DNA of 30,098 bases from Mycobacteriales bacterium (GCA_035553635.1 DATMKB010000406.1:1-30098), one strand, 5' to 3'; counted from the stretch's first letter, positions 1,954 through 23,506 are shown. Made by a program: numbers and translations. Notes: generated from the sequence alone by a model not told the origin.

Positions 1954-3420
1954 GTGGCCAGGCGGGGGGACGTGCGGGACGAGGAGCTCGAGGGCGAGCT
2001 CCCGGGCGGGCTGTGGTTCACCGACGAGGAGCCCGTGCTGCCGCCGCCCGCGCACCCCGGCGCGCGGCGGCTGCTGTCGGCGCTCGTCGTGCTCGCGCTG
2101 CTGGGCGGCGCCGTCCTGCTGGGCGTGCGCTGGACGGGAGCGTCCGACGTCCGCGACGTGCTGGCGTCCTCCACCCGCACCTACGCCCGGGTGCTCGGCG
2201 CCGTGGGGTCGGCCTCCGACCCGGAGGCCCTCGCCGCCGCCGCAGCGCTGGCGCCCCGCGCGGCCGAGCGGCTCGCGGCCGACCTCGGCCGGCTCCGGCC
2301 CGACGGCGGCGAGCGCCGGGCCGCCGTGGCGGCGCAGGTCGAGGCCGAGCGCGGCGTGCTGGCGGCGCTCGCACCGCTCGAGCGGCTGGCCGACGGCCCG
2401 CTGGAGGTGTGGGGGCGCGCGCACGCCGGCCTGACCGCGACGGTCGAGGCGGAGGCGCGCAGCCGGTCCCGGCTCGGCGCCGTCGACCCCGCTGCTGCCG
2501 GTCGCCTGCCCGACACCCCGGCCGCCGTCCGCCGCGCCGCCGCGACCGTGGGCAGCGCGCTCGTCGACGACGTGCAGCAGGCCGCGGCCGCGCTGCTCGA
2601 CGCCCTGCAGGGCGCCCGCACCACCGCCGACCTGCGCGCCGCCGGCGACGGGGCGGCAGCCCAGCGCGACGCCGCCGCCGCGGCGCAGGACGGCCTGGGC
2701 GGCGACGCCGGGGTGCTCGCCGCCTTCACCGCGGCCCTCGACGCCGCCACCGGGCTGCGCGAGGTGACGCCGGCCGAGACCTCCGGCTGGCCCGCGCTGC
2801 GCGGCCGGCTGAGCGAGCAGCTGCGCACCGTGGCCGACGCCGACGACTCGCTGGCCGCCGGCTCCGTGCGCGCCCGGCTGCCGCTCGTGCTGGCCGCCGT
2901 CGACCGGGTGGTGGCGGCGGCGGCCGACGCGCACGCCGAGTGGCAGCCCCGCTACGACGCCGCCGTCGCCGCGCAGGCGGCCGACCGGGCCGCGCTGCAG
3001 CGCTACGCCGACGCCGTCCGCTCCCTCGGCGAGGACCAGGAGGCCCTGCGGGCGGCGGCGGCGGCGCTGCGGGCGCGCGGCGGCACCGCCGACGACGTCC
3101 TGCGCGAGGCCGACCGGCTGGCGGCCGACGGCGAGCGGCTGCTGGCGGTGCTGCGCACGGCGGCCGTCCCGGCCGGCGTCGAGGACGCGCACGCCGGGCT
3201 GGTGGCCGCGCTCGAGCGCGTCGCGGGGCCGCCCGTGCGCGCCTTCGAGGAGCTCCGCACGCAGGTCTGCCCGGGCTGCCCCGCCTCCGACGCGCCGTCG
3301 TGGTCGCAGCTCGGCGCCGCCGACCCGTGGCCCACCGCGGTCGCGGCCTGGGAGCCCGCGCTGGCCGAGGCCGACGCCGCCGTGGCCGCCCGGGCGCTGC
3401 CGCCGCCTCCGGACGCCTGA
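1954..3420 (+). CDS. Hypothetical membrane-anchored Ala-rich helical protein, about 488 aa (alternative GTG at 1972)
   Basis: 3' part of ORF 970..3420 with GC-rich third positions; acidic N-terminus, one TM helix ([21 protein letters not shown]), long helical region, C-terminal CPGC motif. Confidence 0.7.
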
Positions 3421-3439
3421 GCGCGTAGCGTCGCCGCCC

Positions 3440-4237
3440 GTGACGGACGACCCCGCTGCTCTCGCCCGCTCCGCCGCCGACCGGCTCGCCTCGCTGACCG
3501 GCGCCGACCGCCACGACGTCGCCGTCGTGCTCGGGTCGGGGTGGGTGCCCGCCGCCGACGCCCTGGGGGAGCCCGAGGCCGAGGGCACGGTCGCCGACCT
3601 GCCGGGCTTCCTGCCGCCCGCGGTCGCCGGGCACGCCGGCCGGTGGCGCTCGGTGCAGGTGGGCGGCTCCCGCGTGCTCGTGCTCCTCGGCCGCACGCAC
3701 CTCTACGAGGGCCGCGGCACCGATCCGGTGGTGCACGGTGTCCGCACCGCCGCGGCGGCCGGCTGCCGCACGGTGGTGCTCACCAACGCGGCCGGCGGCC
3801 TGCGCGACGGCATGCAGGTCGGCCAGGCGGTGCTCCTCGCCGACCACCTCAACCTCACCGCCCGCTCGCCGCTCGTCGGGCCGCGCTTCGTCGACCTCAC
3901 CGACCTGTACAGCGCGCGGCTGCGCGCGCTCGCCCGCGACGTCGACCCCTCGCTCGCCGACGGCGTCTACGCCGCGCTGCCCGGTCCGCACTACGAGACG
4001 CCGGCCGAGGTCCGGATGCTGCGCGCGCTCGGCGCCGACCTCGTCGGCATGTCGACAGTGCTCGAGGCCGTGGCCGCCCGGGCCGAGGGCCTCGAGGTCC
4101 TCGGCGTCTCGCTCGTCACCAACCTGGCCGCGGGCATCACCGGCGCGCCGCTCGACCACGCCGAGGTGCTCGAGGCCGGAGCGGCCTCGGCCGCCCGGGT
4201 CGGCGGGGTGCTCGCCGCGGTGCTGGCCCGGCTGTGA
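3440..4237 (+). CDS. punA: Purine-nucleoside phosphorylase (trimeric, family 2)
   Basis: [46 protein letters not shown] motifs. Confidence 0.93.
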
Positions 4238-5775
4238 GGTTCGAGGCGGAGGCCCGCGCCTGGGCGGCGGACGACCCCGACCCGGCCACCCGCGCCGAGG
4301 TGGAGGCGCTCCTGGCCGCCGGCGACGAGGGGGGCCTGGCCGCGCGCTTCGACGGCCGGCTCGTCTTCGGCACCGCCGGCCTGCGCGGGCCCGAGCGCGC
4401 CGGCCCGACCGGCATGAACCGGGCGGTGGTGCGGCGGGCCGCGGCCGGGCTCGCCGCGCACCTCGGCCCGGGCGCCACCGTCGTCGTCGGGCGCGACGCC
4501 CGGCACGGGTCGGAGGCGTTCGCGGTCGACACCTGCGCCGTGCTCGCCGGCGCCGGGCTGCGGGCCCGGCTGCTGCCGCGCGTCCTGCCGACGCCGGTGC
4601 TCGCCCATGCGGTCCTGCACCTCGGCGCCGACGCCGGCGTCATGGTCACGGCGAGCCACAACCCGCCGCAGGACAACGGCTACAAGGTCTACCTCGCCGA
4701 CGGCGCGCAGGTGGTCGCGCCGGTCGACGCGCAGGTCGAGGAGCGCATCGCGGCGGTCGGGCCCGTGCTCGCGATCCCGCTGTCGGACGACTGGGAGGTG
4801 CTCGGCGAGGAGGTCGTCGACTCCTACCTCGACGCCGTCGCCGCCCTGCCGCTGACGCCGCACCGCGACGTGCGGGTCGCCTACACGCCGATGCACGGCG
4901 TCGGGGGAGCGGTGCTGCTCGAGGCCTTCCGGCGCGCCGGCTTCGCGCCGCCTGCCGTCGTCGCCGCCCAGGCCGAGCCCGACCCCGACTTCCCGACCGT
5001 CTCGTTCCCCAACCCGGAGGAGCCCGGGGCGATGGACCGGCTGCTCGCGCTGGCCGACGAGACCGGCGCCGACGTCGCGATCGCGAGCGACCCGGACGCC
5101 GACCGCGTCGCCGTCGCGGTCGGCGGGCGGCCGCTGCGCGGCGACGAGACCGGCCTGCTGCTCGCCGACCACCTGCTGTCGCACGGCCGGCTCGGGCGGG
5201 TGGCCACCACGGTCGTGAGCGCGTCGGCGCTGCGCGTGCTCGCCGCGTCCTACGGCGTCCCGTTCAGCGAGACGCTCACCGGGTTCAAGCACCTCGCCCG
5301 CGCGGGGGAGGGCCTCGTCTACGGCTACGAGGAGGCGCTCGGCGTCATGGTCGCGCCCGACGTCGTGCGCGACAAGGACGGCGTCAGCGCGGCGCTGCTC
5401 GTCGCCGACCTCGCGGCCGAGGAGCGGGCCCGCGGGCGCACGCTGCTCGACCGGCTCGCCGACCTCGAGGCGCGGCACGGCCGGCACGAGACCCGGCAGC
5501 TGTCGTACCGCGTCGACGACCTGTCCCTCATCACCGCGGCGGTCGAGCGGCTGCTCGCGGACCCGCCGGAGGCCTACGGGCGGTTCGCCGTCACCGCGGT
5601 CGAGCAGCCGGCGCCGGACGTGCTCGTGCACCGGCTCCAGGGCGGTCGCGTGGTGGTGCGGCCGAGCGGCACGGAGCCCAAGCTCAAGGCCTACCTCGAG
5701 CTCGTCGACCCCGCGCCCGGGGCGGTGGACGCCCTCGTCGCCGCCGTCGACGCCCGGCTCGGCCTGCCCCGGTAG
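4234..5775 (+). CDS. Alpha-D-phosphohexomutase family phospho-sugar mutase (PmmB/PGM2-like; probably phosphopentomutase), 513 aa
   Basis: GTGA overlap with punA stop; FGTAGLRG, catalytic TASHNP, metal-binding [20 protein letters not shown]. Confidence 0.92.
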
Positions 5776-5778
5776 CGT
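5773..5778 (+). promoter_or_regulatory. Putative -10 hexamer TAGCGT overlapping the mutase stop codon, 7 nt before deoC GTG
   Basis: TAGCGT-cgcgggc-GTG; no Shine-Dalgarno visible. Confidence 0.45.
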
Positions 5779-5785
5779 CGCGGGC

Positions 5786-6436
5786 GTGACCCTGACGCGC
5801 GCGCAGCTGGCCTCCCGCATCGACCACACGCTGCTCAAGCCGGAGGCCACCGACGCCCAGGTCGCCGCCCTGTGCGCGGAGGCCGAGGAGCTGGGCACCT
5901 ACTCGGTCTGCGTCTCGCCCGCACGGCTGCCGCTGCGCCCCCTGCACGGCGTCGTGGTCTGCACCGTGGTCGGCTTCCCGAGCGGCGCCGTGCGCCCGGA
6001 GGTCAAGGCCGCCGAGGCCGCGCAGGCCGCCCGCGACGGCGCCCGCGAGGTCGACATGGTGGTGGACCTCGGCCGGGTCAAGGCCGGCGACTGGGACGCC
6101 GTCGAGGCGGACGTGCGGGGCGTCGTCGAGGCGAGCGGCGTGCTCGTCAAGGTGATCCTGGAGAGCGCGGCGCTGACCCGGGCGGAGCTCGTCGAGGCCT
6201 GCCGCGCCAGCGAGCGCGGCGGTGCGCAGTACGTGAAGACCTCCACCGGCTTCCACCCGGCGGGCGGCGCGTCCGTCGAGGCGGTGCGCGTCATGGCCGA
6301 GACGGTCGGCGGGCGCCTCGGCGTCAAGGCGAGCGGCGGCATCCGCGACACGGCGACGGCGCTCGCGGTGCTCGACGCGGGCGCGACGCGGCTGGGCCTG
6401 TCCGGCACCCGCGCGGTGCTGGACGGCCTCTCCTAG
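5786..6436 (+). CDS. deoC: Deoxyribose-phosphate aldolase
   Basis: [36 protein letters not shown] motifs. Confidence 0.95.
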
Positions 6437-8369: not shown

Positions 8370-9538
8370 GCCGGCACCCGCACCGGGAGCACCGCCGTGA
8401 GCGCGAAGCCGCCACCGGTGCGCGGTCCGGCCGACATCCGCCCGCCGTAGGCGCCGGTGCGCTCCTCGAGCAGGCGCAGGCCGCGGCCCGTGCCGCCGGC
8501 CGGCACCGCCGCCCCGCGGCCGTCGTCCTCGACCCGGATGTCGAGCGCCTCGCCCGTCCACGACAGCCGCACGTGCACCCGCGCCGGGCCGGCGTGCTTG
8601 AGCGCGTTCGTCAGCGACTCCTGCACGATCCGGTACGCGGCGAGGTCGACGCCGGCGTCGAGCGGCACCGGGTCGCCGACCTGCTCGAGCACCACGTCGA
8701 GGCCGGCGTCGCGCACGCGGGCGACGAGCGCCCCGAGGTCGGCGGTGCCGGGCTGCGGCGCGAGGTCGGCCGGGTCGTCGGCGTCGGCCCGCAGGACGCC
8801 GAGGACGCGGCGAAGCTCGTCGAGCGCGGCGCGGCCGGCGCCCTGCACGGCGTCCAGCGCCTGCTCCGCGGCGTCGGGGTCGCGGCGCACGAGCCGCCGC
8901 GCGGCGGTGGCCTGCACCGTCATCGCCGTGAGGCTGTGCGCGACGACGTCGTGCATCTCGCGCGCGATGCGGCTGCGCTCCTGCGCCATCGCCGCCCGCA
9001 GCTCCGACTCGCGCGCCGCCTCCATCGCGCGGTTGCGCTCGGTGAGGCTGGCGACGTTCGCCCGGTGCGTGCGGACGGCGCGGCCCACGGCCCAGCCCGT
9101 GGTGAGGACGAACGTGTTCCCGAACCAGTCCGCGAGCGCCACCTCGACCGGCGCCGTCAGCATGATGCCGACCACGCCGAGCCAGGCCCCGACGGCGCAC
9201 GCAACGCTCGTGCGCAGCCGCTCGCGCGAGGCGACGGTGTAGAGCACGAGGAGCGCCGCGACGCCGCCGAGCGCCTGCGGGTAGTCGAGCGCGAAGACCG
9301 TCAGCGAGGCGGTGATCGAGACGAGGAAGGCCGGCACCGGCACGCGGCTGCGCACGGCCACGGCCGCGTTCGCGAGCACGGTCAGGGCGACGCCGAGCGC
9401 GTCCGGCTCGCGGAAGTCGTAGGTGACGAAGTCGGGCGGGTCGAACATCGACGACAGCGACAGCGCCGCCAGCAGCGCCGCCACGAGGGCGTCGACGACG
9501 ACGGCGTGCCGCTGCACCAGCTCGCGCGCCCGGACCAC
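8366..9538 (-). CDS. Membrane sensor histidine kinase (HisKA_3 + HATPase_c), 390 aa
   Basis: Several N-terminal TM helices; H-box ERSRIAREMHDVVAHSL; N-box QESLTNALKHA; G1 VEDDGRG; GTG 9538 lies 6 nt after TACGGT (9550-9545). Confidence 0.92.
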   Translation of the reverse strand: MVRARELVQRHAVVVDALVAALLAALSLSSMFDPPDFVTYDFREPDALGVALTVLANAAVAVRSRVPVPAFLVSITASLTVFALDYPQALGGVAALLVLYTVASRERLRTSVACAVGAWLGVVGIMLTAPVEVALADWFGNTFVLTTGWAVGRAVRTHRANVASLTERNRAMEAARESELRAAMAQERSRIAREMHDVVAHSLTAMTVQATAARRLVRRDPDAAEQALDAVQGAGRAALDELRRVLGVLRADADDPADLAPQPGTADLGALVARVRDAGLDVVLEQVGDPVPLDAGVDLAAYRIVQESLTNALKHAGPARVHVRLSWTGEALDIRVEDDGRGAAVPAGGTGRGLRLLEERTGAYGGRMSAGPRTGGGFALTAVLPVRVPA

Positions 9539-13752: not shown

Positions 13753-14826
13753 TCAGGCGACGCCGGCGGCGAGCGTGGCGTAGCCGGGCTTGATGCGCCC
13801 CTCGATGACGGCCAGGCGCTCGTCGAAGGGGAGGAAGGCCGACTTCATGGCGTTGACGGTGAGCCAGCGCAGGTCGTCCCAGCCGTAGTCGAAGGCGTCG
13901 ACCAGGGCCGACATCTCGGACGAGACCGACACCCCGCTCATGAGGCGGTTGTCGGTGTTGACCGTGACCCGGAAGCCCAGCGACCGCAGCAGGCCGATCG
14001 GGTGCTCGGCGATGGACGGCGCGGCACCGGTCTGCACGTTCGACGTCGGGCACATCTCGAGCGGGATGCGCTTGTCGCGCACGTAGGCCGCGAGGCGGCC
14101 GAGCCGGGCGGTGCCGTCGTCGTCGACCTCGATGTCGTCGACGATGCGCACGCCGTGGCCGAGCCGGTCGGCGTTGCACCACTGCAGCGCCTCCCAGATC
14201 GACGGCAGGCCGAACGCCTCCCCGGCGTGGATGGTGAAGTGCCCGTTCTCGCGCTGCATCAGCTGGAAGGCGTCGAGGTGCCGGCTCGGCGGGTAGCCGG
14301 CCTCGGCGCCGGCGATGTCGAACCCGACCACGCCCTCGTCGCGGTAGCGGATGGCGAGCTCGGCGATCTCGAGCGAGCGGGCCTGGTGGCGCATCGCCGT
14401 CAGGAGCGTGCCGACGCGGATGCCCTCGGGCGCCGCGCGGAAGCCCTCGAGCACGGCCTCGACGACGGCCGGCAGCGCGAGCCCGCGGTCGGTGTGCAGC
14501 TCCGGCGCGAAGCGGACCTCGGCGTAGACGACGCCGTCAGCGGCGAGGTCCTCGGCGCACTCGCGGGCGACCCGCACGAGGGCCTCCTCGGTCTGCATGA
14601 CCCCGACGGTGTGCCGGAACGTCGACAGGTACCGCGGCAGGTCGCCGGCGTCGGCGTTCTCGACGAACCAGCGGCCGAGCGCCTCCGGGTCGGTCTCCGG
14701 GAGGTCGGCGTAGCCGGTGGCGTCGGCCAGCTCGACCACGGTGGCCGGGCGGAGCCCGCCGTCGAGGTGGTCGTGCAGCAGCACCTTCGGCGCGCGGCGG
14801 ACGTCGTCGGGCGACGGGCGGCTCAC
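13753..14826 (-). CDS. add: Adenosine deaminase, 357 aa
   Basis: [38 protein letters not shown]; GTGA overlap at 14823-14826. Confidence 0.95.
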
Positions 14827-15647
14827 GCGGGGACCTCCTCGAAGCCGCGCGCCGGCAGGTCGGCCGGCCGCTGCAGCCAGTTGTCGGCGGGGTAGTGGGC
14901 GGTGCCGTCGACGAGGTGCAGCGAGTAGGCCGCCCGCGACCGCGGGCTGGTGTTCGGGCTGCTGCGGTGGGGGAGCAGCCCGTGCAGCAGGACCACCGTG
15001 CCGGCCGGCGCCTCGAGCGGCACCCAGCCCTCCTCGGGCACCTCCACCGGCTCGTCGCGCAGGCGCACGAACGACGTGCCGTCGGCGTCGCCGCCGTTGC
15101 GGACGAAGCGGCGCTCCAGCGGGACGGTGCGGTGCCCGCCCGGCAGCGCCCACAGGCAGCCGTTCTCCACCGTGGCGTCCTCGAGCGCGACCCAGACGCC
15201 CACGCAGCTCTGCGGCTCGGTGTAGAGGAACGTCGCGTCCTGGTGGCTGCCCACCTCGCCGCCGGACAGGGCCGCCTTGCACAGGTACATCGACTGCAGC
15301 AGGAGCGGCTGCGCGACGCCCAGGTCGGCCACCAGCTCGGCGAGCAGGGGCTGCCGGCTGAACGCCGCGAAGACCGGGTCGAGGTCGTGCAAAGCGTGGC
15401 CGATCTTCGCCAGCGTGACGCCGTCCGGCTCGGTGAAGCAGGTGATGCGCGGCCCGCTGGACAGGAAGCGCTCGTCGGAGACGCGCTCCTGCTCCTGCGT
15501 CGTGAACACCGCCTTCTCCGCCGGCGCAGCGGCGGCGATCTCCTGCGCCCGCGCGACGAGCCGGTCGCAGTCCGCGCGGTCGACGAGGTCCGGCAGGACG
15601 AGGAAGCCGTCGCGGTCGAACGACGCGCGCTGCTCAGCGGTGAGCAC
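14823..15647 (-). CDS. Phytanoyl-CoA dioxygenase family, PHYHD1-like 2-oxoglutarate/Fe(II) dioxygenase
   Basis: HQD...H facial triad ([17 protein letters not shown]; [10 protein letters not shown]), [26 protein letters not shown] motifs. Confidence 0.9.
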
Positions 15648-15998
15648 TCAGCCCTCCCGGTTGACGGTGTCGGGGGAGAAGGCGGGCAGGCAGACGGCGA
15701 CGTACTCCGCGCCCTGCGGCGTGGTGTAGCGGACCCGCTCGCCGGCGCGCGTCACGACGGCCGAGCCGGCCGGCACCTCGAGCACCCCGCCGTCGTGCTC
15801 GACGTGCACGGCGCCGGCCAGCACGAGCGTCACCTCGTCGAACTCCGGCACCTGCGCCGGCTCCTCCCACCCGGCGGGCGAGCGCATGTGCGCCACCGAC
15901 ACCGCCTCGCTGCCGGTGCTGGCCCGGCCGACGTACTCGTCGATGAGCTTGCCGCCCGGCACGGGCACCCGCACCGGCGACGTCACGAGCTCAGGCAC
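15648..15998 (-). CDS. Cupin-fold protein (EutQ-like, no canonical His ligands), 116 aa
   Basis: GWEEPAQVPEFDEVTLVLAGAVHVE...AGSAVVTRAGERVRY cupin pattern; overlaps deoA stop by 8 nt and abuts the dioxygenase. Confidence 0.8.
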   Translation of the reverse strand: MPELVTSPVRVPVPGGKLIDEYVGRASTGSEAVSVAHMRSPAGWEEPAQVPEFDEVTLVLAGAVHVEHDGGVLEVPAGSAVVTRAGERVRYTTPQGAEYVAVCLPAFSPDTVNREG

Positions 15999-17289
15999 GC
16001 GAGGACCCCTCCCTGCTCACCGTGCCGAGCACCAGGGGGGTGCGCGGCACGTCGTCGTCGCGGACGTCGAAGGCGCCCTCGAGGGCGTCTAGCGCGTCCT
16101 GCACGCGCGCGTCGTCGTCGGTGTGCAGCTCCAGCAGCGGCGCGCCGGCCACCACCGGGTCGCCCGGCGCGGCCAGGACGCGCACCCCCGCCGCCGGGTC
16201 GACGGCGTCCTCCTTGCGGGCCCGGCCGGCGCCGAGCCGCCAGGCGGCCGTGCCGACGGCCCGGGCGTCGAGCCGGGTGAGCACGCCGTCGCGCGGCGAG
16301 GCGACGAACGCCACGTGCCGGGCCGACGGCAGGGGCGCGTCCGGGTCGCCGCCCTGCGCGCGGACCATCGCGTCCCAGACCCGGCGGGCCGAGCCGTCCT
16401 GCAGGGCCGTGCGCGGGTCGACGTCGGCCCGGCCGCCCAGGGCGAGCATCTGCCCGGCGACGGCCAGGCACACCTCGACCAGGTCGTCCGGCCCGCCGCC
16501 GTCGAGCACCTCGACCGCCTCGGCCACCTCCAGCGCGTTGCCCACGGCGCGGCCGAGCGGCGCCTCCATGGAGGTCAGCAGGCAGACGGTGCGGACGCCG
16601 TGCGCGTGGCCGAGGTCGACCATCACCTCGGCCAGCTCGCGCGCCCGCTCCTCGGTGGGCATGAACGCGCCGGCGCCGACCTTGACGTCGAGCAGCACGG
16701 CGCCGGCGCCGCCGGCGATCTTCTTGCTCATGATGCTGCTGGCGATGAGCGGCACCGACTCGACCGTCGCGGTGACGTCGCGCAGGGCGTAGAGGGCCTT
16801 GTCGGCGGGAGCGACGTCGTCGGTGGCGGCGGCGATGACCGCGCCGACGTCGCGCAGCTGCTGCACGAACTGCTCGCCCGTCAGCGCACCGGTCCAGCCG
16901 GGGATGCTCTCGAGCTTGTCGAGCGTGCCGCCGGTGTGCCCGAGCCCGCGGCCGGAGAGCTTGGGCACGGCCACGCCGGAGGAGGCGACGAGCGGGGCGA
17001 CGACGAGCGACACCTTGTCGCCCACGCCGCCGCTCGAGTGCTTGTCGACCACGGGCCGCCCCACGCCCGAGAGGTCGATGCGGCGGCCGGAGCCGACCAT
17101 CGCGTCGGTCCACGCGGCGAGCTCGCGCGTGGTCATGCCGCGGAAGACGACCGCCATGAGCAGCGCGCTCATCTGCTCCGGGGCCACCAGCCCGCGGGTG
17201 AAGCCGTCCACGACCCAGCGGAGCGCGTCGTCGGGCAGCTCCTCACCGTCGCGCTTGCGGCGCACGACGTCGACCGCCGTCCAGCTCAC
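15991..17289 (-). CDS. deoA: Thymidine/pyrimidine-nucleoside phosphorylase, 432 aa
   Basis: DKHSSGGVGDK, SGRGLGHTGGTLDKLESIPG, PADKALYALRDVTATV, SSIMSKKIA; GTGA overlap with cdd. Confidence 0.95.
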   Translation of the reverse strand: MSWTAVDVVRRKRDGEELPDDALRWVVDGFTRGLVAPEQMSALLMAVVFRGMTTRELAAWTDAMVGSGRRIDLSGVGRPVVDKHSSGGVGDKVSLVVAPLVASSGVAVPKLSGRGLGHTGGTLDKLESIPGWTGALTGEQFVQQLRDVGAVIAAATDDVAPADKALYALRDVTATVESVPLIASSIMSKKIAGGAGAVLLDVKVGAGAFMPTEERARELAEVMVDLGHAHGVRTVCLLTSMEAPLGRAVGNALEVAEAVEVLDGGGPDDLVEVCLAVAGQMLALGGRADVDPRTALQDGSARRVWDAMVRAQGGDPDAPLPSARHVAFVASPRDGVLTRLDARAVGTAAWRLGAGRARKEDAVDPAAGVRVLAAPGDPVVAGAPLLELHTDDDARVQDALDALEGAFDVRDDDVPRTPLVLGTVSREGSSRA

Positions 17290-17669
17290 GGCAGGTCCTC
17301 GGGGCCGAACGCGCCGGGCAGCACGGACGTCATGGGCAGGATGCCGTCGTCGGTGTCGACGAGCAGGTCCGCGCCGCCGTGCTCCCACAGCAGCTGCCGG
17401 CAGCGGCCGCAGGGCATGAGCCGCTCGCCGGAGCCCGACACGCACGCGAACGCCGTCAGTCGGCCGCCGCCGCTCGCGTGCAGCGCGGAGACCAGGCCGC
17501 ACTCCGCGCACAGCGTGAGCCCGTAGGAGGCGTTCTCGACGTTGCAGCCGGTGACCGTGCGGCCGTCGTCGACGAGCGCCGCGGCGCCGACCTGGAGGCC
17601 GCTGTACGGCGCGTAGGCCCGGGCGGCGGCGTCGCGGGCGGCGGCGCGCAGCGCGTCCCAGTCGGTCAC
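17286..17669 (-). CDS. cdd: Cytidine deaminase, 127 aa
   Basis: AYAPYS, GCNVENASYGL, CAEC and PCGRCRQ zinc motifs. Confidence 0.95.
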   Translation of the reverse strand: MTDWDALRAAARDAAARAYAPYSGLQVGAAALVDDGRTVTGCNVENASYGLTLCAECGLVSALHASGGGRLTAFACVSGSGERLMPCGRCRQLLWEHGGADLLVDTDDGILPMTSVLPGAFGPEDLP

Positions 17670-18922
17670 GAGGAGGTCCCCTTGCGGTAGGGCAGCCCGA
17701 CGGCGGCCGGCGGGCGGAGCCGCTGCGCGGCGAGCCCGAGGACCAGCAGCGTCGCGACGTAGGGCGTGAGGCCGGTGAGCTCGCCCGGCACGAGGTCGGT
17801 GACGGCGAACCAGACGAGCACCGCGACGGCGACGAGCATCCCGGTGATGCCGGCGCGCCGGGAGCCCCGGACGATGAGCAGCACGCCGACCACCACGAGC
17901 GCGATGCCGACGAGCAGCAGCAGCGCGTGCACCGACTCGCCGCCCCGCCGGAGCTGCAGGGCGTCGGCGTAGCCGAACAGCGCGGCACCGGCGGCCGTCC
18001 CGCCCGGGCGCCAGTTGCCGAAGATCATGGCGGCGATGCCGATGAAGCCGCGGCCGCCGGTCTGCCCCTCGCGGTACGCGCTGGCCGCGACGATGGCGAG
18101 GAACGCGCCGCCGAGGCCGGCGAGGGCGCCGGACACCACCACGGCCGCGTACTTCATCGTGTAGACGTTGACGCCGAGCGACTCCGCCGCCTGCGGCCGC
18201 TCGCCGCAGGCGCGCAGCCGCAGCCCGAACGCGGTGCGCCAGAGGACGAACCAGCTGAGCACCACGACCGCGACGGCGATGAGCGTCAGTACCGAGACGC
18301 CGGTGACGAGCCCGCGCAGGATGCCGGCGACGTCGGACAGCAGGAACCAGCCCTGCGCCTCGAGGTCGCCGAGGGCCGGCCCCACGCCGGGCAGCGTGAA
18401 CGACGGCAGGTCGCCGACCGGCGGCGACTGCGTGGCGCCACCGCCCGAGACGTCCGCGTACGCGACCGCCGACAGGTACTGAGCCGTGCCGCTGCCGAGC
18501 AGGATGACGGCGACACCGCTGACGATCTGGTCGACCCCGAACGTCACGGTGGCGATCGCGTGCACGAGACCGCCGAGCGCGCCGAAGGCGACGGCCGCGA
18601 GCACGCCGTACCAGGGGCCGTACGTCCAGCCGGCGTAGCCGGCCGCCCAGGTGCCGAGGATGAGCATCCCCTCGAGGCCGATGTTCACCACGCCGGCCCG
18701 CTCGGCCCACAGCGCGCCGAGGCCGGCCATGCCGATCGGCACGGCGAGCCCCAGCGCGGCGGCGACGGTGCCGGCCGAGGTGATGTCGTCGGCCCCCGTG
18801 ACGACGCGCACGAGCGACAGCAGCACCACGAGCCCGGCCGCGCCGAACCACGCGCGCGAGGCGCGCAGCCGGCGGCGGGGCTGCTGGTCGACCGGCGCGG
18901 CGCCGGTGGTGCGGGTGCTCAC
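17666..18922 (-). CDS. Nucleoside (simple sugar-type) ABC permease, 418 aa
   Basis: ERAGVVNIGLEG, RT.FGLRLRACGE, GRGFIGIAAMIFG, LPYR C-terminus; coupled by GTGA overlaps. Confidence 0.92.
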   Translation of the reverse strand: MSTRTTGAAPVDQQPRRRLRASRAWFGAAGLVVLLSLVRVVTGADDITSAGTVAAALGLAVPIGMAGLGALWAERAGVVNIGLEGMLILGTWAAGYAGWTYGPWYGVLAAVAFGALGGLVHAIATVTFGVDQIVSGVAVILLGSGTAQYLSAVAYADVSGGGATQSPPVGDLPSFTLPGVGPALGDLEAQGWFLLSDVAGILRGLVTGVSVLTLIAVAVVVLSWFVLWRTAFGLRLRACGERPQAAESLGVNVYTMKYAAVVVSGALAGLGGAFLAIVAASAYREGQTGGRGFIGIAAMIFGNWRPGGTAAGAALFGYADALQLRRGGESVHALLLLVGIALVVVGVLLIVRGSRRAGITGMLVAVAVLVWFAVTDLVPGELTGLTPYVATLLVLGLAAQRLRPPAAVGLPYRKGTSS

Positions 18923-20034
18923 GCCGGCACCCCCTCGGCGTCGGCGGCGCGCTGCTGGTCGAGCTCGCGCGCGACGCGGCGCTGCTCGTCGCGCAGGCGG
19001 TAGCGCCGTACGAGCTCGTAGGCGACGACGACCGAGAGCACGATGGTCCCCTGCATGATCGTGACGATCTCGCGCGAGACGCCCTCGATGTCGAGGATGA
19101 CCGACGAGACGTCGAGGTAGGCCCACAGGAGCGCGCCGAAGGCGATGCCCACGGGGTGGTTGCGCCCGAGCAGTGCGATGGCGATGCCGGTGAAGCCCAG
19201 GCCCGCGGGGAAGTCGAGGCTGTAGGAGTACGACGCCCCGAGCAGCTGCGGCATGCCGACCAGGCCGGCGACGGCGCCGGACAGCAGCATCGTCGTCACG
19301 GTCATCCGCTTGACGTCGACGCCGCTGGCCACCGCCGCGCTCTGCGACCGCCCGGTGGCGCGAAGGTCGAAGCCGAACCGGGTGCGGCCGAGCAGCAGCC
19401 AGTACGCGACGCCGACGAGCACCGCGAGCGGCAGCAGGCCGAACACCTCGAGGCTGCTGTCGGGGACGAGCGGGAGGCCGCCCACGCGCCCGGACTCCGG
19501 GATCGGCTGCGTGCCGATGTTGTTGCTGCCCTGCACCGGCACCGCGACCTTGCGCAGGAAGAACGCGACGAGGCCGGTGGCGATCGCGTTCAGCATGATG
19601 GTCGAGATGACCTCGCTGACGCCGCGGGTCGCCTTGAGCAGGCCGGCGAGGCCCGCCCACATCGCGCCGACGGCGACGGCCGTGAGGATGATGACCGCCT
19701 GGTGCAGCCCCGCCGGCAGCGACAGCGTGCCGCCGACGTAGGCGGCCGTCATGGCGGCCAGCCGGTACTGGCCGTCGACGCCGATGTTGAACAGGTTCAT
19801 CTTGAACCCGATCGCGACCGCCACCGCCGACAGGTAGTAGGTGGTGGCCGCGTTCAGGACGAGCGCGATGCTGCGCGGCTGCTGCCCGTAGTCCAGGAGC
19901 AGCTGGAAGGTCCCGAGCACGGGGTCACCCGCGCCGATGAGCACGAACGACGCGAGCAGCGCGGCGAAGGCGATGGCGAGCAGCGGCGCGGCCAGCCCGA
20001 GCGCGGGGCTGCGGACGTCCCTGCGCCCGGTCAC
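18919..20034 (-). CDS. Nucleoside (simple sugar-type) ABC permease, 371 aa
   Basis: LFNIGVDGQY, EVISTIMLN, RTRFGFDLRATG, GFTGIAIALLGRNHP. Confidence 0.92.
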   Translation of the reverse strand: MTGRRDVRSPALGLAAPLLAIAFAALLASFVLIGAGDPVLGTFQLLLDYGQQPRSIALVLNAATTYYLSAVAVAIGFKMNLFNIGVDGQYRLAAMTAAYVGGTLSLPAGLHQAVIILTAVAVGAMWAGLAGLLKATRGVSEVISTIMLNAIATGLVAFFLRKVAVPVQGSNNIGTQPIPESGRVGGLPLVPDSSLEVFGLLPLAVLVGVAYWLLLGRTRFGFDLRATGRSQSAAVASGVDVKRMTVTTMLLSGAVAGLVGMPQLLGASYSYSLDFPAGLGFTGIAIALLGRNHPVGIAFGALLWAYLDVSSVILDIEGVSREIVTIMQGTIVLSVVVAYELVRRYRLRDEQRRVARELDQQRAADAEGVPA

Positions 20035-21557
20035 GCGGCGCCCTGCCCGGCTCCGGTCATGGCGCTGCCGAGCTGCTCGGGCGTCACCGTGCCGGGGTCG
20101 ACGTCGGCGACGAGGCGGCCGCGCAGGACGACGGCGATGCGGTCGGACAGGCCGATGAGCTCGTCGAGGTCGGCCGACACGAGCAGCACGGCGAGCCCCT
20201 GCCGGCGGGCGGTGCGCACGTGCTCCCAGATGGCGGCCTGGGCGCCGACGTCGACCCCGCGCGTCGGGTGGCTCGCGACCAGCACGCTGATGTCGGCGCT
20301 CATCTCGCGCCCGACGATGAGCTTCTGCTGGTTGCCGCCCGACAGGGCGCTGGCGAGCACGTCGATGCCGGGGGTGCGGACGTCGTACTCCCGCACGATG
20401 CGCTCGGTGTCGCGCCGGGCGGCGCTGCGGTCGATGAGCGCGCCCTTCACGTTCGGTGCCTCCGTCTGGTGGCCGAGCACCCGGTTCTCCCACAGCGGGG
20501 CGTCGAGCAGCAGCCCGTGGCGGTGGCGGTCCTCCGGCACGTATCCGATGCCGCCCTCGCGACGGCGGCGGGTGGACCACCCGGTGACGTCCTGCCCGCC
20601 GAGGTGGACGGTGCCGGCGTCGGTGCGGCGCATGCCGAGCACCGCCTCGACGAGCTCGGCCTGGCCGTTGCCCTCGACCCCGGCGAGCCCGAGGACCTCG
20701 CCGCGGCGGATGGTGAGCGAGACGTCGTCGACGAGCGCGCGGCCGGTGGCGTCGCGCACGGTCAGCCCGCGCACCTCGAGCACCACCTCGTCGGTCACGG
20801 TGGACTCGCGGGTCTCGGGCGACGGGAGCTCGGCGCCCACCATGAGCTCGGCCAGCTCGCGCGCCGTCGTCGTCGCGGGGTCGACGGTCGCGACGGTGGT
20901 GCCGCGGCGGATCACGGTGACGTCGTCCGCGACGGTGAGCACCTCGTCGAGCTTGTGGGAGATGAAGATGACGGTCAGGCCCTCGCTCTTGAGCTCGCGC
21001 AGGTTGGCGAACAGCTCGTCCACCTCCTGCGGCACGAGCACCGCGGTCGGCTCGTCGAGGATGAGGATCCGGGCGCCGCGGTAGAGCACCTTGAGGATCT
21101 CGACGCGCTGCCGCTGGCCGACGCCGAGGTCGCCGACCAGGCGGTCGGGCTCGACGCCGAGGCCGTAGGCGTCGGAGATCTCCGTGATGCGCCGCCGCGC
21201 GGTGCGCAGGTCCAGGACGACGCCGCCCGTGCGCGGCTCGCTGCCGAGCACGACGTTCTCGAGGACGGTGAGGTTGTCGGCGAGCATGAAGTGCTGGTGC
21301 ACCATGCCGACGCCGGCGGCGATGGCGTCGCCGGGGTCGCCGAAGCGGACCTCGCGGCCGTCCACCCGCACGGTGCCCTCGTCGGGGCGCTGCATCCCGT
21401 ACAGGATCTTCATGAGGGTCGACTTGCCGGCGCCGTTCTCGCCGACGACGGCGTGCACCGTGCCGGCGCGCACGCGCAGCTCGACGTCGCGGTTGGCGAC
21501 GACGCCGGGGAAGCGCTTGGTGACGCCGGTCAGCTCGACCGCGAGGGGTGCGCTGAT
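20031..21557 (-). CDS. Nucleoside ABC transporter ATP-binding protein with two ABC domains, about 508 aa (start inferred at ATC 21557; ORF track uses GTG 21635)
   Basis: GENGAGKST, ILILDEPT, LSGGNQQK, HPTRGVD; AGGAGG (21570-21565) lies 7 nt before ATC. Confidence 0.9.
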   Translation of the reverse strand: MSAPLAVELTGVTKRFPGVVANRDVELRVRAGTVHAVVGENGAGKSTLMKILYGMQRPDEGTVRVDGREVRFGDPGDAIAAGVGMVHQHFMLADNLTVLENVVLGSEPRTGGVVLDLRTARRRITEISDAYGLGVEPDRLVGDLGVGQRQRVEILKVLYRGARILILDEPTAVLVPQEVDELFANLRELKSEGLTVIFISHKLDEVLTVADDVTVIRRGTTVATVDPATTTARELAELMVGAELPSPETRESTVTDEVVLEVRGLTVRDATGRALVDDVSLTIRRGEVLGLAGVEGNGQAELVEAVLGMRRTDAGTVHLGGQDVTGWSTRRRREGGIGYVPEDRHRHGLLLDAPLWENRVLGHQTEAPNVKGALIDRSAARRDTERIVREYDVRTPGIDVLASALSGGNQQKLIVGREMSADISVLVASHPTRGVDVGAQAAIWEHVRTARRQGLAVLLVSADLDELIGLSDRIAVVLRGRLVADVDPGTVTPEQLGSAMTGAGQGAA

Positions 21558-21604
21558 GACCGGACCTCCTGAGGGGGAGAGGGAGCTCGCGACGGCCGGA
21601 CGCG

Positions 21605-21650
21605 GGACGGGGCCCGCCGGGACGCTAGCGCGCACCCGGGGGCCCCGTCC
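21605..21650. repeat. 11-bp perfect inverted repeat between lipoprotein and ATPase genes, enclosing a TAGCGT hexamer
   Basis: GGACGGGGCCC 21605-21615 / GGGCCCCGTCC 21640-21650; TAGCGT on minus strand at 21627-21622. Confidence 0.6.
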
Positions 21651-21669: not shown

Positions 21670-22728
21670 TCAGCTGGTCGGGACGGTGATCTCGCCGCTG
21701 ATGATCTTCTGCTTGTAGTCCTCGAGCTGCGCGGTGATGTCGTCCACCTTGCCGCCCGACGTCGAGTAGTCGACGCCGCCGGCCTCGAGGTCGTAGACCG
21801 TCTGGCCGGACTGGACGTCGCCCTCGACCGCGCTGTTGATGAAGTCGAAGACCGCGACGTCGACCTTCTTGAGCATCGACGTGAGGATGACGTCCTGCAC
21901 CGCCTCGCCGGCGGTCACGTACTGGTCGGAGTCGACGCCGATGGCGAGCTTGCCCGCCGCGTCGGCCGCCTCGAACAGGCCGGAGCCCGAGCCGCCGGCG
22001 GCGTGGTAGACGACGTCGGCGCCGGAGTCGAACATGCCCTGGGCGGCGGTGCGGCCCTTGGCCGGGTCGTTGAACCCGGTGAAGTCCGGCGGCTGCGTCA
22101 GGTAGGTGGTCTGCACGGTGATGCCGGGCTTGACGGCCTCGGCGCCGGCCTTGAAGCCCGCCTCGAACTTCTTGATGAGCGGGACCTCGACGCCCCCGAT
22201 GAAGCCCACGTTGCCGTTCGGGCTCTTGAGGGCGGCGGCCACGCCGACGAGGAAGGAGCCCTGCTCCTCGGCGAAGACGAGGTTGCTGATGTTGTCGCCC
22301 TCGGCCGCGGCGTCGTCGACGATCGCGAAGGTGGTGTCGGGGAACTCCTCGGCGACCGCGGCGAGCGGGCCCGAGTAGGCGAACCCGACCGCGATGACCG
22401 GGTTGAAGCCGCTGCTGGCCAGCAGGCGCAGGCGCTCCTCCTTGGCGGAGTCGGACTCGCCGGCGCCCGCCTCGGCCTCGCGGACCTCGACGCCGAGCTC
22501 CTCGACGGCGCGGTCGAGGCCGGCGGCGGCGGCGTCGTTGAAGGACTGGTCGCCGCGGCCGCCGATGTCGTAGGCGAGGGCGACGCGGACGTCGCTGGAC
22601 GCGCCGCTGTCGCCGGACGCGGTGTCGGTGTCGCTGCTGCTGTCGCTGCCGCCGCAGGCGGTGAGCGCCAGCGCCGAGACGGCCGCGGCCGCCACGAAGC
22701 GCCGGCTGCGCAGGAGTCCTGTGCGCAA
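21670..22728 (-). CDS. BMP-family nucleoside-binding lipoprotein
   Basis: TTG start with GGAGG at 7 nt; lipobox LTAC; YDIGGRGDQSFN, F.EEQGSFLVG, AIGVDSDQ, SMLKKVD motifs. Confidence 0.93.
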   Translation of the reverse strand: MRTGLLRSRRFVAAAAVSALALTACGGSDSSSDTDTASGDSGASSDVRVALAYDIGGRGDQSFNDAAAAGLDRAVEELGVEVREAEAGAGESDSAKEERLRLLASSGFNPVIAVGFAYSGPLAAVAEEFPDTTFAIVDDAAAEGDNISNLVFAEEQGSFLVGVAAALKSPNGNVGFIGGVEVPLIKKFEAGFKAGAEAVKPGITVQTTYLTQPPDFTGFNDPAKGRTAAQGMFDSGADVVYHAAGGSGSGLFEAADAAGKLAIGVDSDQYVTAGEAVQDVILTSMLKKVDVAVFDFINSAVEGDVQSGQTVYDLEAGGVDYSTSGGKVDDITAQLEDYKQKIISGEITVPTS

Positions 22729-22873: not shown

Positions 22874-23506
22874 TCAGACCGGGCGCAACGCCGCGAGGAC
22901 GGTCCGCGCGAAGGCGACGAAGCGGTCGACCGGCCACTGCTCGGGCTCGGCCAGGACCAGCCGCGCCGCGCCCTCCGCGAGCGTGAACACCGCCAGCGCG
23001 AACAGCCCCGGGTCGAGCGCGGGCCCCCCGCGCAGGGCGAGCCCCTGCTCGAGCAGGACGCGCAGCTGCTCCAGCAGCACGCCGCGGTGGCGGTCGACGC
23101 GGGCGGCGAGCTCGGCGGGGGCGCCCTCCGGCGGCAGCAGCACGACGCGCCAGGTGCGCGGGTCCTCCGACACGGCGCGCAGGTAGGCGGCGACGCCCGC
23201 GACGAGCAGCTCGTCGGGGTCGGCGTCCTGCGGCAGGTCGCCGCTCGGGAAGACCGGCCCGAGCTGCTCGAGGGTGCGCGCCTCCGCGCGGTCGGCGAGC
23301 GCGGTGAGCAGGGCGGTGCGGTCGGCGAAGGCGCCGTACACGACCGGCCGGGTGACGTCGCACGCGCGGGCGACGGCGTCGACGGTGACGGCGTGGAAGC
23401 CGCGCTCGAGCGCGATGTCGAGGGCGGCGTCGAGCAGCTGCTCCCGGCGCTGGGCGAGCGGCAGCCGCGGCGCGTACGGCCGCCTGGCGGGTCTTGCGCT
23501 CGTCAC
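22874..23506 (-). CDS. TetR/AcrR family transcriptional regulator
   Basis: REQLLDAA...GFHAVTVDAVARACDVTRPVVY HTH; GTG preceded by TAGCAT + 7 nt (23519-23514). Confidence 0.93.
   Translation of the reverse strand: MTSARPARRPYAPRLPLAQRREQLLDAALDIALERGFHAVTVDAVARACDVTRPVVYGAFADRTALLTALADRAEARTLEQLGPVFPSGDLPQDADPDELLVAGVAAYLRAVSEDPRTWRVVLLPPEGAPAELAARVDRHRGVLLEQLRVLLEQGLALRGGPALDPGLFALAVFTLAEGAARLVLAEPEQWPVDRFVAFARTVLAALRPV

What the first reader, a model, noticed from the sequence alone, without database searches (positions are those of the whole stretch)
14823..15647. PHYHD1-like dioxygenase wired into a nucleoside salvage operon: candidate modified-nucleoside recycling system
Seen: the gene lies between deoA/cupin and add, abutting one and overlapping the other, within the run bmp-ATPase-perm-perm-cdd-deoA-cupin-phyH-add. 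Its motifs (FLSSG, KIGHALH, QSMY, GGEV..HQDA.FLYTEP, EDAT.ENGCLW, NWLQ) match my recollection of human PHYHD1. Established: the mycobacterial cdd-deoA-add run has no such insert. From memory, not checked here: PHYHD1 and bacterial relatives have been reported to demethylate 2'-O-methyl nucleosides. Inference: the operon imports RNA breakdown products and unblocks 2'-O-methylated or otherwise modified nucleosides so phosphorylases can use them, giving genomic-context support for a physiological role.
Basis: partly seen in the sequence, partly recalled or inferred. Interest (0 to 1): 0.7.

Follow-up and report, generated by a model that had tools for sequence, protein, structure and literature searches.

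The report
Nucleoside demethylase gene in salvage operon
An uncultured soil or freshwater actinobacterium carries a true bacterial counterpart of human PHYHD1, an enzyme shown in 2025 to strip the 2'-O-methyl group from free RNA-derived nucleosides, built into its nucleoside uptake and breakdown operon, and the same linkage recurs in distant bacteria, which suggests these operons also recycle otherwise resistant methylated nucleosides.

Summary
ORF 14823-15647 (-) is a 274-aa PhyH-family Fe(II)/2-oxoglutarate dioxygenase. Its closest solved relative by a wide margin is human PHYHD1 (E 5e-54 against 3.5e-10 for PHYH; model TM 0.86, 40% identity). The iron/2OG residues are kept, and so are five of the six nucleoside contacts proposed for PHYHD1. 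The gene is translationally coupled inside bmp-ABC-perm-perm-cdd-deoA-cupin-phyH-add.

That paper has no genomic-context analysis, and its bacterial test enzymes belong to a different (FJS) clade.

The linkage is not unique to this genome:
- All 14 Actinomycetota orthologues found by genome search lie next to add, cdd or deoA.
- So do 38 of 94 bacterial loci, including a separate alphaproteobacterial clade (cdd-PNP-deoC-deoA-phyH-5'-nucleotidase).
- The gene is rare: 5 of 301 genomes of the order. One relative keeps only a deletion remnant.

The cupin is an independent, more common partner of deoA with unknown function.

Verdict: a new member of a known kind, with useful context evidence. Activity is inferred, not shown. 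This scan noted the same arrangement before on other DNA (Pseudovibrio, e1-5245839).

The parts
14823..15647 (-). PHYHD1-type Fe(II)/2-oxoglutarate dioxygenase (274 aa); predicted 2'-O-methyl nucleoside demethylase
   Evidence: PF05721 at 143.5 bits. Human PHYHD1 2OPW/3OBZ at E 5e-54. AF2 model pLDDT 83.9, TM 0.86 to 3OBZ. H135/D137/H227/R238 and K81/H84/Q118/F140/W257 are conserved.
13753..14826 (-). add, adenosine deaminase; its GTG start overlaps the phyH stop (GTGA)
   Evidence: NF006847 at 600.6 bits, cut-off 412; junction read.
15648..15998 (-). Small EutQ-like cupin (116 aa) with no conserved His; function unknown; a conserved partner of deoA that occurs independently of phyH
   Evidence: Weak Pfam cupin hits. 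2PYT at E 7e-5. Generic cupin fold. Found in 27 of 301 genomes of the order, directly after deoA in 20 of 25 loci.
15991..17289 (-). deoA, thymidine/pyrimidine-nucleoside phosphorylase
   Evidence: NF004490 at 573.9 bits, cut-off 269; Pfam Glycos_transf_3 and PYNP_C.
17286..17669 (-). cdd, cytidine deaminase; its GTG overlaps the permease stop, and its own stop overlaps the deoA start
   Evidence: NF004064 at 183 bits, cut-off 74; junctions read.
17666..18931 (-). ABC permease 2 (BPD_transp_2); start approximate
   Evidence: PF02653; GC3 frame.
18919..20076 (-). ABC permease 1 (BPD_transp_2); start approximate
   Evidence: PF02653; GC3 frame.
20031..21635 (-). Double ABC ATPase of the BMP-type importer; true start uncertain (21563-21635)
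   Evidence: PF00005 twice.
21670..22728 (-). Bmp/PnrA-like substrate-binding lipoprotein of the nucleoside ABC importer
   Evidence: PF02608 at 200.7 bits.
22874..23506 (-). TetR-family regulator upstream of bmp on the same strand; possible regulator, link unproven
   Evidence: PF00440.
3398..6436 (+). Nearby nucleoside-catabolic genes: PNP_UDP_1 phosphorylase (3398-4237), PGM/PMM-family mutase (4210-5775) and a DeoC-like aldolase (5735-6436, weak match)
   Evidence: Pfam; search of the window's own genome.

Best explanation
The gene encodes a bacterial orthologue of PHYHD1, an Fe(II)/2-oxoglutarate dioxygenase. It most likely hydroxylates the methyl carbon of free 2'-O-methyl ribonucleosides (Am, Cm, Um, Gm, Im), so that the group leaves as formaldehyde and the ordinary nucleoside remains. 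In this operon the BMP-type ABC importer would bring in nucleosides from RNA breakdown. The dioxygenase would unblock the 2'-O-methylated fraction. The co-translated cdd, deoA and add would then deaminate and phosphorolyse the products. The PNP, mutase and aldolase genes 8-10 kb away would handle the purine nucleosides and the pentose phosphate.

Shown here: family membership, conserved catalytic and predicted substrate-contact residues, translational coupling, and recurrent operon linkage in two phyla.

Inferred: the substrate, the direction of flux, and uptake of methylated nucleosides by this transporter.
For: The best solved relative is human PHYHD1 (E 5e-54; the next, PHYH, is 3.5e-10). 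The predicted structure matches 3OBZ/2OPW at TM 0.86/0.85 and 40% identity, while all other hits are at TM 0.71 or below.

The facial triad H135/D137/H227 and R238 are present. The equivalents of the docking-derived ribose and base contacts K102/H105/Q139/F161/W277 (here K81/H84/Q118/F140/W257) are present in the window protein and invariant in 94 bacterial orthologues.

Every PHYHD1-type enzyme tested in PMC12709175 (human, mouse, fish, fly, fungus, Fadolivirus) demethylated 2'-O-methyl nucleosides and did not act on nucleotides or RNA. E. coli, which has cdd, udp and deoA, cannot use 2'-O-methylcytidine without such an enzyme.

The gene junctions are overlapping or abutting, each with a Shine-Dalgarno sequence.

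Linkage: all 14 Actinomycetota orthologues from unbiased genome samples lie next to add, cdd or deoA. So do 38 of 94 loci overall. A separately branching alphaproteobacterial clade has perm-perm-cdd-PNP-deoC-deoA-phyH-5'-nucleotidase. This is the only PF05721 gene in the genome.
Against: No assay was done here. No bacterial member of the PHYHD1-proper clade has been assayed: the paper's bacterial enzymes are FJS-type, with the WHQDSGY motif.

55 of 94 orthologous loci (Acidobacteriota, Myxococcota, Azospirillaceae) show no nucleoside genes nearby. They often pair the gene with a GNAT and a ChrA or MFS transporter instead, although their pocket residues are identical.

The deoA-add gap is a variable slot that holds unrelated genes in other genomes, such as PIN, ABC-2 and Clp_N-HTH.

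The gene is rare (5 of 301 genomes of the order) and was lost by deletion in one relative, so it is dispensable.

Human S154, the proposed purine contact, is Gly here. The PHYHD1-specific helix region is shortened and modelled with low confidence.
Confidence: 0.72

Rival explanations
1. It is a nucleoside-directed Fe/2OG oxygenase that performs a different reaction in salvage. Candidates are 2'-hydroxylation of deoxynucleosides (as fungal PDN2'H does), removal of another 2'-O-alkyl or base methyl group, or oxidation of a nucleoside antibiotic or analogue.
For: The operon context only says 'nucleoside'. FJS and PHYHD1 are promiscuous towards the base and accept 2'-O-allyl. Fe/2OG enzymes that act on free deoxynucleosides exist. 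Position 133, equivalent to human S154, varies among the bacterial orthologues.
Against: The ribose-contact residues that place the 2'-O-methyl at the iron in the docked PHYHD1 model are all invariant. Orthologues at about 40% identity from animals, a fungus and a giant virus all carry out the same demethylation. PDN2'H is not reported as a PhyH-family member.
Confidence: 0.15
2. It is a passenger in a variable intergenic slot. Its real substrate is an unrelated small molecule, as suggested by the transporter-phyH-GNAT pairing in Acidobacteriota, and its position between deoA and add has no functional meaning.
For: The deoA-add slot carries unrelated inserts elsewhere. 55 of 94 loci are not linked to nucleoside genes, and GNAT is the commonest neighbour there. 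The gene is rare and is lost without loss of the operon.
Against: The linkage recurs in at least three separately branching clades and two phyla, with different operon make-ups. All 14 Actinomycetota orthologues from the unbiased genome samples are linked. Start and stop codons overlap those of the flanking salvage genes. The published substrate is a nucleoside.
Confidence: 0.08
3. It is what databases call it: a phytanoyl-CoA (branched acyl-CoA) 2-hydroxylase.
For: It matches Pfam PF05721, and sources name its relatives 'phytanoyl-CoA dioxygenase family protein' or 'phytanoyl-CoA hydroxylase'.
Against: Human PHYH matches only the C-terminal half, at E 3.5e-10, against 5e-54 for PHYHD1. Human PHYH had no activity on 2'-O-methyl nucleosides, and FJS made only a negligible trace of hydroxylated phytanoyl-CoA. 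No lipid or CoA genes are in the operon.
Confidence: 0.02

Closest known systems
Eukaryotic and giant-virus PHYHD1 (human isoform A, PDB 2OPW/3OBZ; zebrafish, mouse, fly, Choanephora, Fadolivirus), the 2'-O-methyl nucleoside demethylases of Stonkus et al., NAR 2025 (PMC12709175)
   Same: Same PhyH subfamily. About 40% identity over the full length, the same fold (TM 0.86), the same HxD...H plus Arg, and the same K/H/Q/F/W pocket residues. It shares the KIGHALH, QSMY, HQDAxFLYTEP, ENGCLW and NWLQ motifs, which are also visible in the Fadolivirus sequence.
   Different: It is bacterial. It is shorter by a 4-residue and a 12-residue deletion around the PHYHD1-specific helix and loop. Human S154 is Gly here. 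It is encoded inside a nucleoside import and catabolism operon, a context that eukaryotic genes cannot show and that the paper does not discuss. It has not been assayed.
FJS and FJS-like bacterial PhyH-family demethylases (metagenomic FJS; Acidisoma, Sphingomonas colocasiae, Poribacteria)
   Same: Bacterial PF05721 enzymes with demonstrated demethylation of free 2'-O-methyl nucleosides.
   Different: They form a different clade. They carry WHQDSGY instead of SHQDATFLY, lack the KIGHALH, QSMY and NWLQ motifs, have Tyr in place of the stacking Phe, and have C-terminal helices. No operon context is reported for them.
Mycobacterial and actinobacterial cdd-deoA-add salvage operon (M. tuberculosis Rv3315c-Rv3313c) with BMP-type nucleoside ABC importers
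   Same: The same three genes in the same order with translational coupling (PMC5661903). The plain form occurs in relatives G019 and G035.
   Different: The window has two extra genes (cupin and phyH) between deoA and add, and the importer genes lie directly upstream in the same string.
Nucleoside hydrolases acting on 2'-O-methyl nucleosides (LbNH, AgNH, RK9NH)
   Same: An alternative known route for catabolism of 2'-O-methyl nucleosides.
   Different: These are hydrolases that release 2'-O-methylribose plus the base. They are an unrelated protein family with no oxidative demethylation.

Membership tests
PHYHD1 subfamily of PhyH (PF05721) Fe(II)/2OG dioxygenases | Full-length PhyH domain above Pfam's gathering score | tested here: met
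   143.5 bits against a cut-off of 22; model positions 1-213 of 213.
PHYHD1 subfamily of PhyH (PF05721) Fe(II)/2OG dioxygenases | Closer to PHYHD1 than to PHYH or any other solved PhyH-like enzyme, by sequence and by fold | tested here: met
   phmmer gives 5e-54 for PHYHD1 against 3.5e-10 for PHYH. Foldseek gives 3OBZ at E 8.5e-30, TM 0.86 and 40% identity; the next hits are at E 1e-15 and TM 0.71 or below. A tree with eukaryotic sequences could not be built, because no usable ids were available.
PHYHD1 subfamily of PhyH (PF05721) Fe(II)/2OG dioxygenases | HxD...H iron triad (human H156, D158, H246) and the conserved Arg (human R257) that I take to bind 2OG | tested here: met
   H135, D137, H227 and R238 align with the human residues. 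They are invariant in alignment A1 and in 94 orthologues.
PHYHD1 subfamily of PhyH (PF05721) Fe(II)/2OG dioxygenases | Docking-derived nucleoside contacts K102, H105, Q139, W277, F161 and S154 | tested here: met
   K81, H84, Q118, W257 and F140 are present and invariant. K, H and Q were partly forced by the retrieval patterns. S154 is not kept (G133 here, and variable among orthologues).
PHYHD1 subfamily of PhyH (PF05721) Fe(II)/2OG dioxygenases | PHYHD1-specific alpha-4 helix near the cavity mouth (human Q56-L71) | tested here: inconclusive
   The region aligns but has a 4-residue deletion and a further 12-residue deletion downstream. Model residues 45-60 have pLDDT 47-59, and only a short helix (58-63) is predicted.
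PHYHD1 subfamily of PhyH (PF05721) Fe(II)/2OG dioxygenases | 2OG-dependent demethylation of free 2'-O-methyl nucleosides, with no activity on nucleotides or RNA | not testable with these tools
   This needs an enzyme assay or complementation, as in PMC12709175.
FJS-type bacterial 2'-O-methyl nucleoside demethylases | WHQDSGY-type iron motif, Tyr as the stacking residue, and no KIGHALH, QSMY or NWLQ motifs | tested here: not met
   The window protein has [13 protein letters not shown]140, KIGHALH, QSMY and NWLQ. FJS-like sequences are shown in the paper's supplement.
Phytanoyl-CoA 2-hydroxylase (PHYH/PAHX) | Full-length similarity to PHYH | tested here: not met
   Only residues 121-252 align well (E 3.5e-10), and the match is far weaker than to PHYHD1.
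BMP-ABC importer plus cdd-deoA-add nucleoside salvage operon | All component genes present, on one strand, in the canonical order and tightly packed | tested here: met
   Pfam and NCBIfam matches above cut-offs; overlapping or abutting junctions; the same string in G017 and in Acidimicrobiia loci.
BMP-ABC importer plus cdd-deoA-add nucleoside salvage operon | Single transcript; transporter specific for nucleosides (including 2'-O-methyl forms) | not testable with these tools
   No terminator-like sites on the operon's strand and no promoter-like sites were found in the scanned interval, and no Rfam element was found. Specificity needs binding or uptake assays.

The most novel reading that the evidence does not exclude
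The deoA-add slot of actinobacterial salvage operons holds a modular toolkit for unblocking modified nucleosides. PHYHD1 removes 2'-O-methyl groups. The His-less EutQ-like cupin is fixed directly after deoA in 20 of 25 sampled loci, from a family found in 11 of 82 sampled genera; it would be a second, still unknown nucleoside- or pentose-processing or binding protein. The extra add paralogue that flanks phyH in Acidimicrobiia would be specialised for modified adenosines. Together these would define a dedicated bacterial pathway for scavenging modified RNA nucleosides from the environment.
Probability: 0.15. Interest if true: 0.65.

Novelty: new member of a known kind. Interest (0 to 1): 0.45.

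Why it matters
The demethylase activity of PHYHD1 was discovered only in 2025, and its physiological role rests on a zebrafish knockout and human metabolite associations. Bacterial operons give independent, purely genomic support that the natural job of this enzyme family is to return free 2'-O-methyl nucleosides to ordinary salvage. They also supply simple systems to test that idea: cultivable carriers such as Aquihabitans daechungensis and Pelagibius marinus, with growth on Nm nucleosides as the readout. The finding corrects the misleading 'phytanoyl-CoA dioxygenase' label on at least 595 bacterial genome records. It also shows that the bacterial PHYHD1-proper clade, untested so far, is distinct from the FJS clade used in the paper. 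For microbial ecology, it suggests that some soil, freshwater and marine bacteria can use a fraction of RNA debris that most others cannot.

Tried and rejected
Neighbourhoods were therefore read with tblastn of the window's own proteins against fetched loci, plus Pfam scans.

2. A tree including eukaryotic PHYHD1, FJS and PHYH could not be built. Membership therefore rests on the PDB sequence and fold searches and on motifs.

3. An Rfam scan of the whole window found nothing. The promoter and terminator scan gave no promoter-like sites and no terminator-like sites on the operon's strand, only two on the opposite strand at the chance level.

4. The idea that the cupin and phyH form one inserted cassette was rejected. 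The cupin occurs without phyH in most carriers, and phyH occurs without the cupin in G017, G039, G117 and all Acidimicrobiia.

5. The idea that the deoA-add slot always holds nucleoside-related accessory genes was rejected. G029 and G034 hold Clp_N-HTH, PIN and ABC-2 genes there.

6. The cupin's function was not resolved. It matches only generic cupins and EutQ.

7. NCBIfam has no model for this PHYHD1 clade.

8. Genome G030 is unpublished.

Full report
**Observation.** The window is about 75% GC, so long spurious ORFs abound. The ORF at 14823-15647 (-) is nevertheless clearly coding. Its GC3 is 0.99 against GC2 0.48. It matches Pfam PhyH end to end at 143.5 bits.

Pfam and NCBIfam confirm the surrounding minus-strand string:
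- Bmp/PnrA-like binding protein, 21670-22728
- double ABC ATPase
- two BPD_transp_2 permeases
- cdd, 17286-17669
- deoA, 15991-17289
- a 116-aa cupin, 15648-15998
- the PhyH gene
- add, 13753-14826

The junctions are those of a translationally coupled operon. GTGA overlaps occur at permease/cdd, cdd/deoA and phyH/add. deoA and the cupin overlap by 8 nt. The cupin TGA sits directly against the phyH GTG. A GGAGG-like box precedes each start.

A TetR gene lies upstream on the same strand. An unrelated MacB-type ABC exporter and a two-component system lie downstream. On the plus strand at 3.4-6.4 kb there are a PNP_UDP_1 phosphorylase, a PGM/PMM-family mutase and a weak DeoC-like aldolase. From my own knowledge, this resembles the deoD-pmmB neighbourhood of the mycobacterial cdd-deoA-add operon.

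**What the protein is.** Against all PDB sequences, the best hit is human PHYHD1 (2OPW/3OBZ) at E 5e-54 over residues 3-265. The next hit, human PHYH, is at 3.5e-10 and covers only the C-terminal half. An AlphaFold model (pLDDT 83.9) matches 3OBZ at TM 0.86 and 40% identity. All other PhyH-like structures score TM 0.71 or below.

The alignment to the human enzyme places H135/D137/H227 on the iron triad H156/D158/H246, and R238 on the conserved Arg. It places K81, H84, Q118, F140 and W257 on K102, H105, Q139, F161 and W277. The published docking proposes those five as the ribose and base contacts. All nine residues are invariant in 94 bacterial orthologues. The caveat is that K, H and Q lie inside the peptide patterns used to retrieve 80 of those loci.

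Human S154 is Gly here. The PHYHD1-specific helix region is shortened and poorly modelled. This is the only PF05721 gene in the 81%-complete MAG.

**What is known.** Stonkus et al. (NAR Dec 2025, PMC12709175) found a metagenomic dioxygenase, FJS, by selecting for growth of a pyrimidine auxotroph on 2'-O-methylcytidine. They showed 2OG-dependent demethylation to cytidine plus formaldehyde. They then showed the same activity for human, mouse, fish, fly and fungal PHYHD1, for plant PHYH-like enzymes and for a Fadolivirus enzyme. None of these acted on nucleotides or RNA, and human PHYH was inactive.

Two points matter here. First, the paper contains no genomic-context analysis. Two further full-text searches found no report of PhyH in cdd-deoA-add operons. 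Second, the bacterial enzymes it tested (FJS, Acidisoma, S. colocasiae, Poribacteria) carry WHQDSGY and lack KIGHALH, QSMY and NWLQ. They are a different clade from the window protein, which resembles the eukaryotic and viral PHYHD1 proper. So the function of the window protein is inferred from orthologues at about 40% identity, not from an assayed bacterial sibling.

**Is the linkage more than a one-off?** Yes. Orthologues were found as follows:
- In the window's order: a same-genus MAG (81% identity), two genomes of the same family and one of another family (64%). That is 5 of 301 genomes and 4 of 82 genera.
- In a phylum sample: 10 of 401 genomes, and nine of the ten come from other families that I take to be Acidimicrobiia, from their tree position and operon type.

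All 14 sit directly beside add, cdd or deoA.

A scan of one genome per species found at least 595 records with a relative. Of the 80 best loci, all but two of those from Actinomycetota carried add, cdd or deoA next to phyH, usually within bmp-abc-perm-perm-(cdd)-(deoA)-phyH-add (L077 and L081 did not). Four loci from Kiloniellaceae and Pelagibius carried perm-perm-cdd-x-x-deoA-phyH. In Pelagibius marinus the full string is cdd-PNP-deoC-deoA-phyH-5'-nucleotidase.

In a maximum-likelihood tree of 94 proteins, the window clade (SH-aLRT 99) nests among linked Acidimicrobiia. The alphaproteobacterial clade (SH-aLRT 100) and a second Acidimicrobiia group lie elsewhere. The linked state changes at least seven times on the tree. 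The different operon make-ups argue for repeated recruitment rather than one transferred block.

**Limits of the context argument.**
- 55 of 94 loci (Pyrinomonadaceae and Blastocatellia, Myxococcota, Azospirillaceae) have no salvage genes nearby. Their commonest same-strand neighbours are a GNAT acetyltransferase directly downstream and a ChrA or MFS transporter upstream.
- The deoA-add gap is a variable slot. It is empty in G019 and G035, and holds Clp_N-HTH, PIN and ABC-2 genes in G029 and G034.
- Within the window's own family, add itself is found in only 5 of 25 genomes.
- In G205 the slot reads cupin, then a remnant of the phyH C-terminus (residues 242-273, 66% identity, two stops), then add. 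This shows loss by deletion.
- The gene is therefore an accessory, gained and lost, not a core part of salvage.

**The cupin.** It is not tied to phyH. It occurs in 27 of 301 genomes of the order (11 of 82 genera). In 20 of 25 loci it lies directly after deoA, usually without phyH. It has thousands of close homologues. It has no conserved His, and has invariant K17, E21, W44, E46, Q49, F53-D54-E55, E87, R90, Y91, Y99 and C103. It folds as a generic single cupin whose nearest structures are EutQ proteins. Its function is open.

**Mechanism proposed.** RNA debris is cut to nucleosides, outside the cell or in the periplasm-equivalent space; in Pelagibius a 5'-nucleotidase is part of the operon. 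The BMP-ABC system imports the nucleosides. 2'-O-methyl nucleosides cannot be used by standard salvage enzymes: E. coli cannot grow on Cm. The dioxygenase uses O2 and 2OG to hydroxylate the methyl group, which leaves as formaldehyde. cdd, deoA, add and PNP then process the plain nucleosides. The order of deamination and demethylation is open, since FJS and PHYHD1 also accept 2'-O-methylinosine and 2'-O-methyluridine. I put this at about 0.72. A different nucleoside-directed oxidation gets about 0.15, a context-independent passenger about 0.08, and a true phytanoyl-CoA hydroxylase about 0.02.

**Novelty and score.** The enzyme family and its reaction are known, so this is a new member of a known kind. 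What is new relative to the literature searched is threefold. A distinct bacterial PHYHD1-proper clade exists. It is repeatedly wired into nucleoside import and catabolism operons in Actinomycetota and some Alphaproteobacteria. It is a dispensable accessory there.

This scan had already noted the same arrangement on other DNA:
- e1-5245839: Pseudovibrio, followed up and supported.
- e1-5013219: a BMP operon extended by a PhyH gene.
- e1-3816893: a PhyH-GNAT pair.

I score interest at 0.45. It is solid, testable context evidence for a very recent biochemical discovery, but it is neither a surprise to a specialist nor a new mechanism.

Noticed in passing
window 15648-15998 (-); loci L116-L118, L142-L163: The His-less EutQ-like cupin is a conserved partner of deoA. 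It occurs in 27 of 301 genomes of the order, directly after deoA in 20 of 25 loci, mostly without phyH. Its function is unknown, and its invariant residues are acidic and aromatic.
   Followed up: partly
L144:1354-1449 (G205, same family): A remnant of the phyH C-terminus (residues 242-273, 66% identity, two in-frame stops) lies between the cupin and add. This is a footprint of phyH loss by deletion from a cupin-phyH-add arrangement like the window's.
   Followed up: yes
L034:5892-6980, L045, L099, L106, L110: Several Acidimicrobiia have a second add paralogue (47-54% identical to the window's add, above NCBIfam's adenosine deaminase cut-off) directly upstream of phyH, giving add'-phyH-add. 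It may be specialised for modified adenosines.
   Followed up: no
L028, L032, L041, L042, L071 (about 7860-8400); L035:7883-8446: There is a recurrent phyH-GNAT pair. In Acidobacteriota the string is transporter (ChrA or MFS)-phyH-GNAT, with no nucleoside genes. In Aquihabitans an AAC(6')-like GNAT sits between phyH and add. An earlier scan note (e1-3816893) saw the same pair.
   Followed up: partly
L043:3601-9404 (Pelagibius marinus): A complete alphaproteobacterial nucleoside catabolic string: perm-perm-cdd-PNP-deoC-deoA-phyH-5'-nucleotidase.
   Followed up: yes
window 3398-6436 (+): A PNP_UDP_1 phosphorylase, a PGM/PMM-family mutase (a candidate phosphopentomutase) and a weak DeoC-like aldolase lie about 8-10 kb from the operon. 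From my own knowledge, this recalls the M. tuberculosis deoD-pmmB region near cdd-deoA-add.
   Followed up: partly
The genome search relatives: Within the window's own family, an add orthologue (E 1e-80 or better) was found in only 5 of 25 genomes, but in all 16 other families of the order that were sampled. The salvage cluster itself looks patchy in this family, though many of these genomes are incomplete MAGs.
   Followed up: no
window 22874-23506 (-) and about 23590-25078 (+): A TetR regulator lies upstream of bmp on the same strand and divergent from an FMO-like flavin monooxygenase. Which of the two it controls is unknown.
   Followed up: no
L042, L046, L047, L067, L068: MAGs labelled Heliomicrobium or Heliobacteriaceae carry phyH genes and neighbourhoods that nest within the Blastocatellia/Pyrinomonadaceae clade. 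The taxon labels look doubtful.
   Followed up: no
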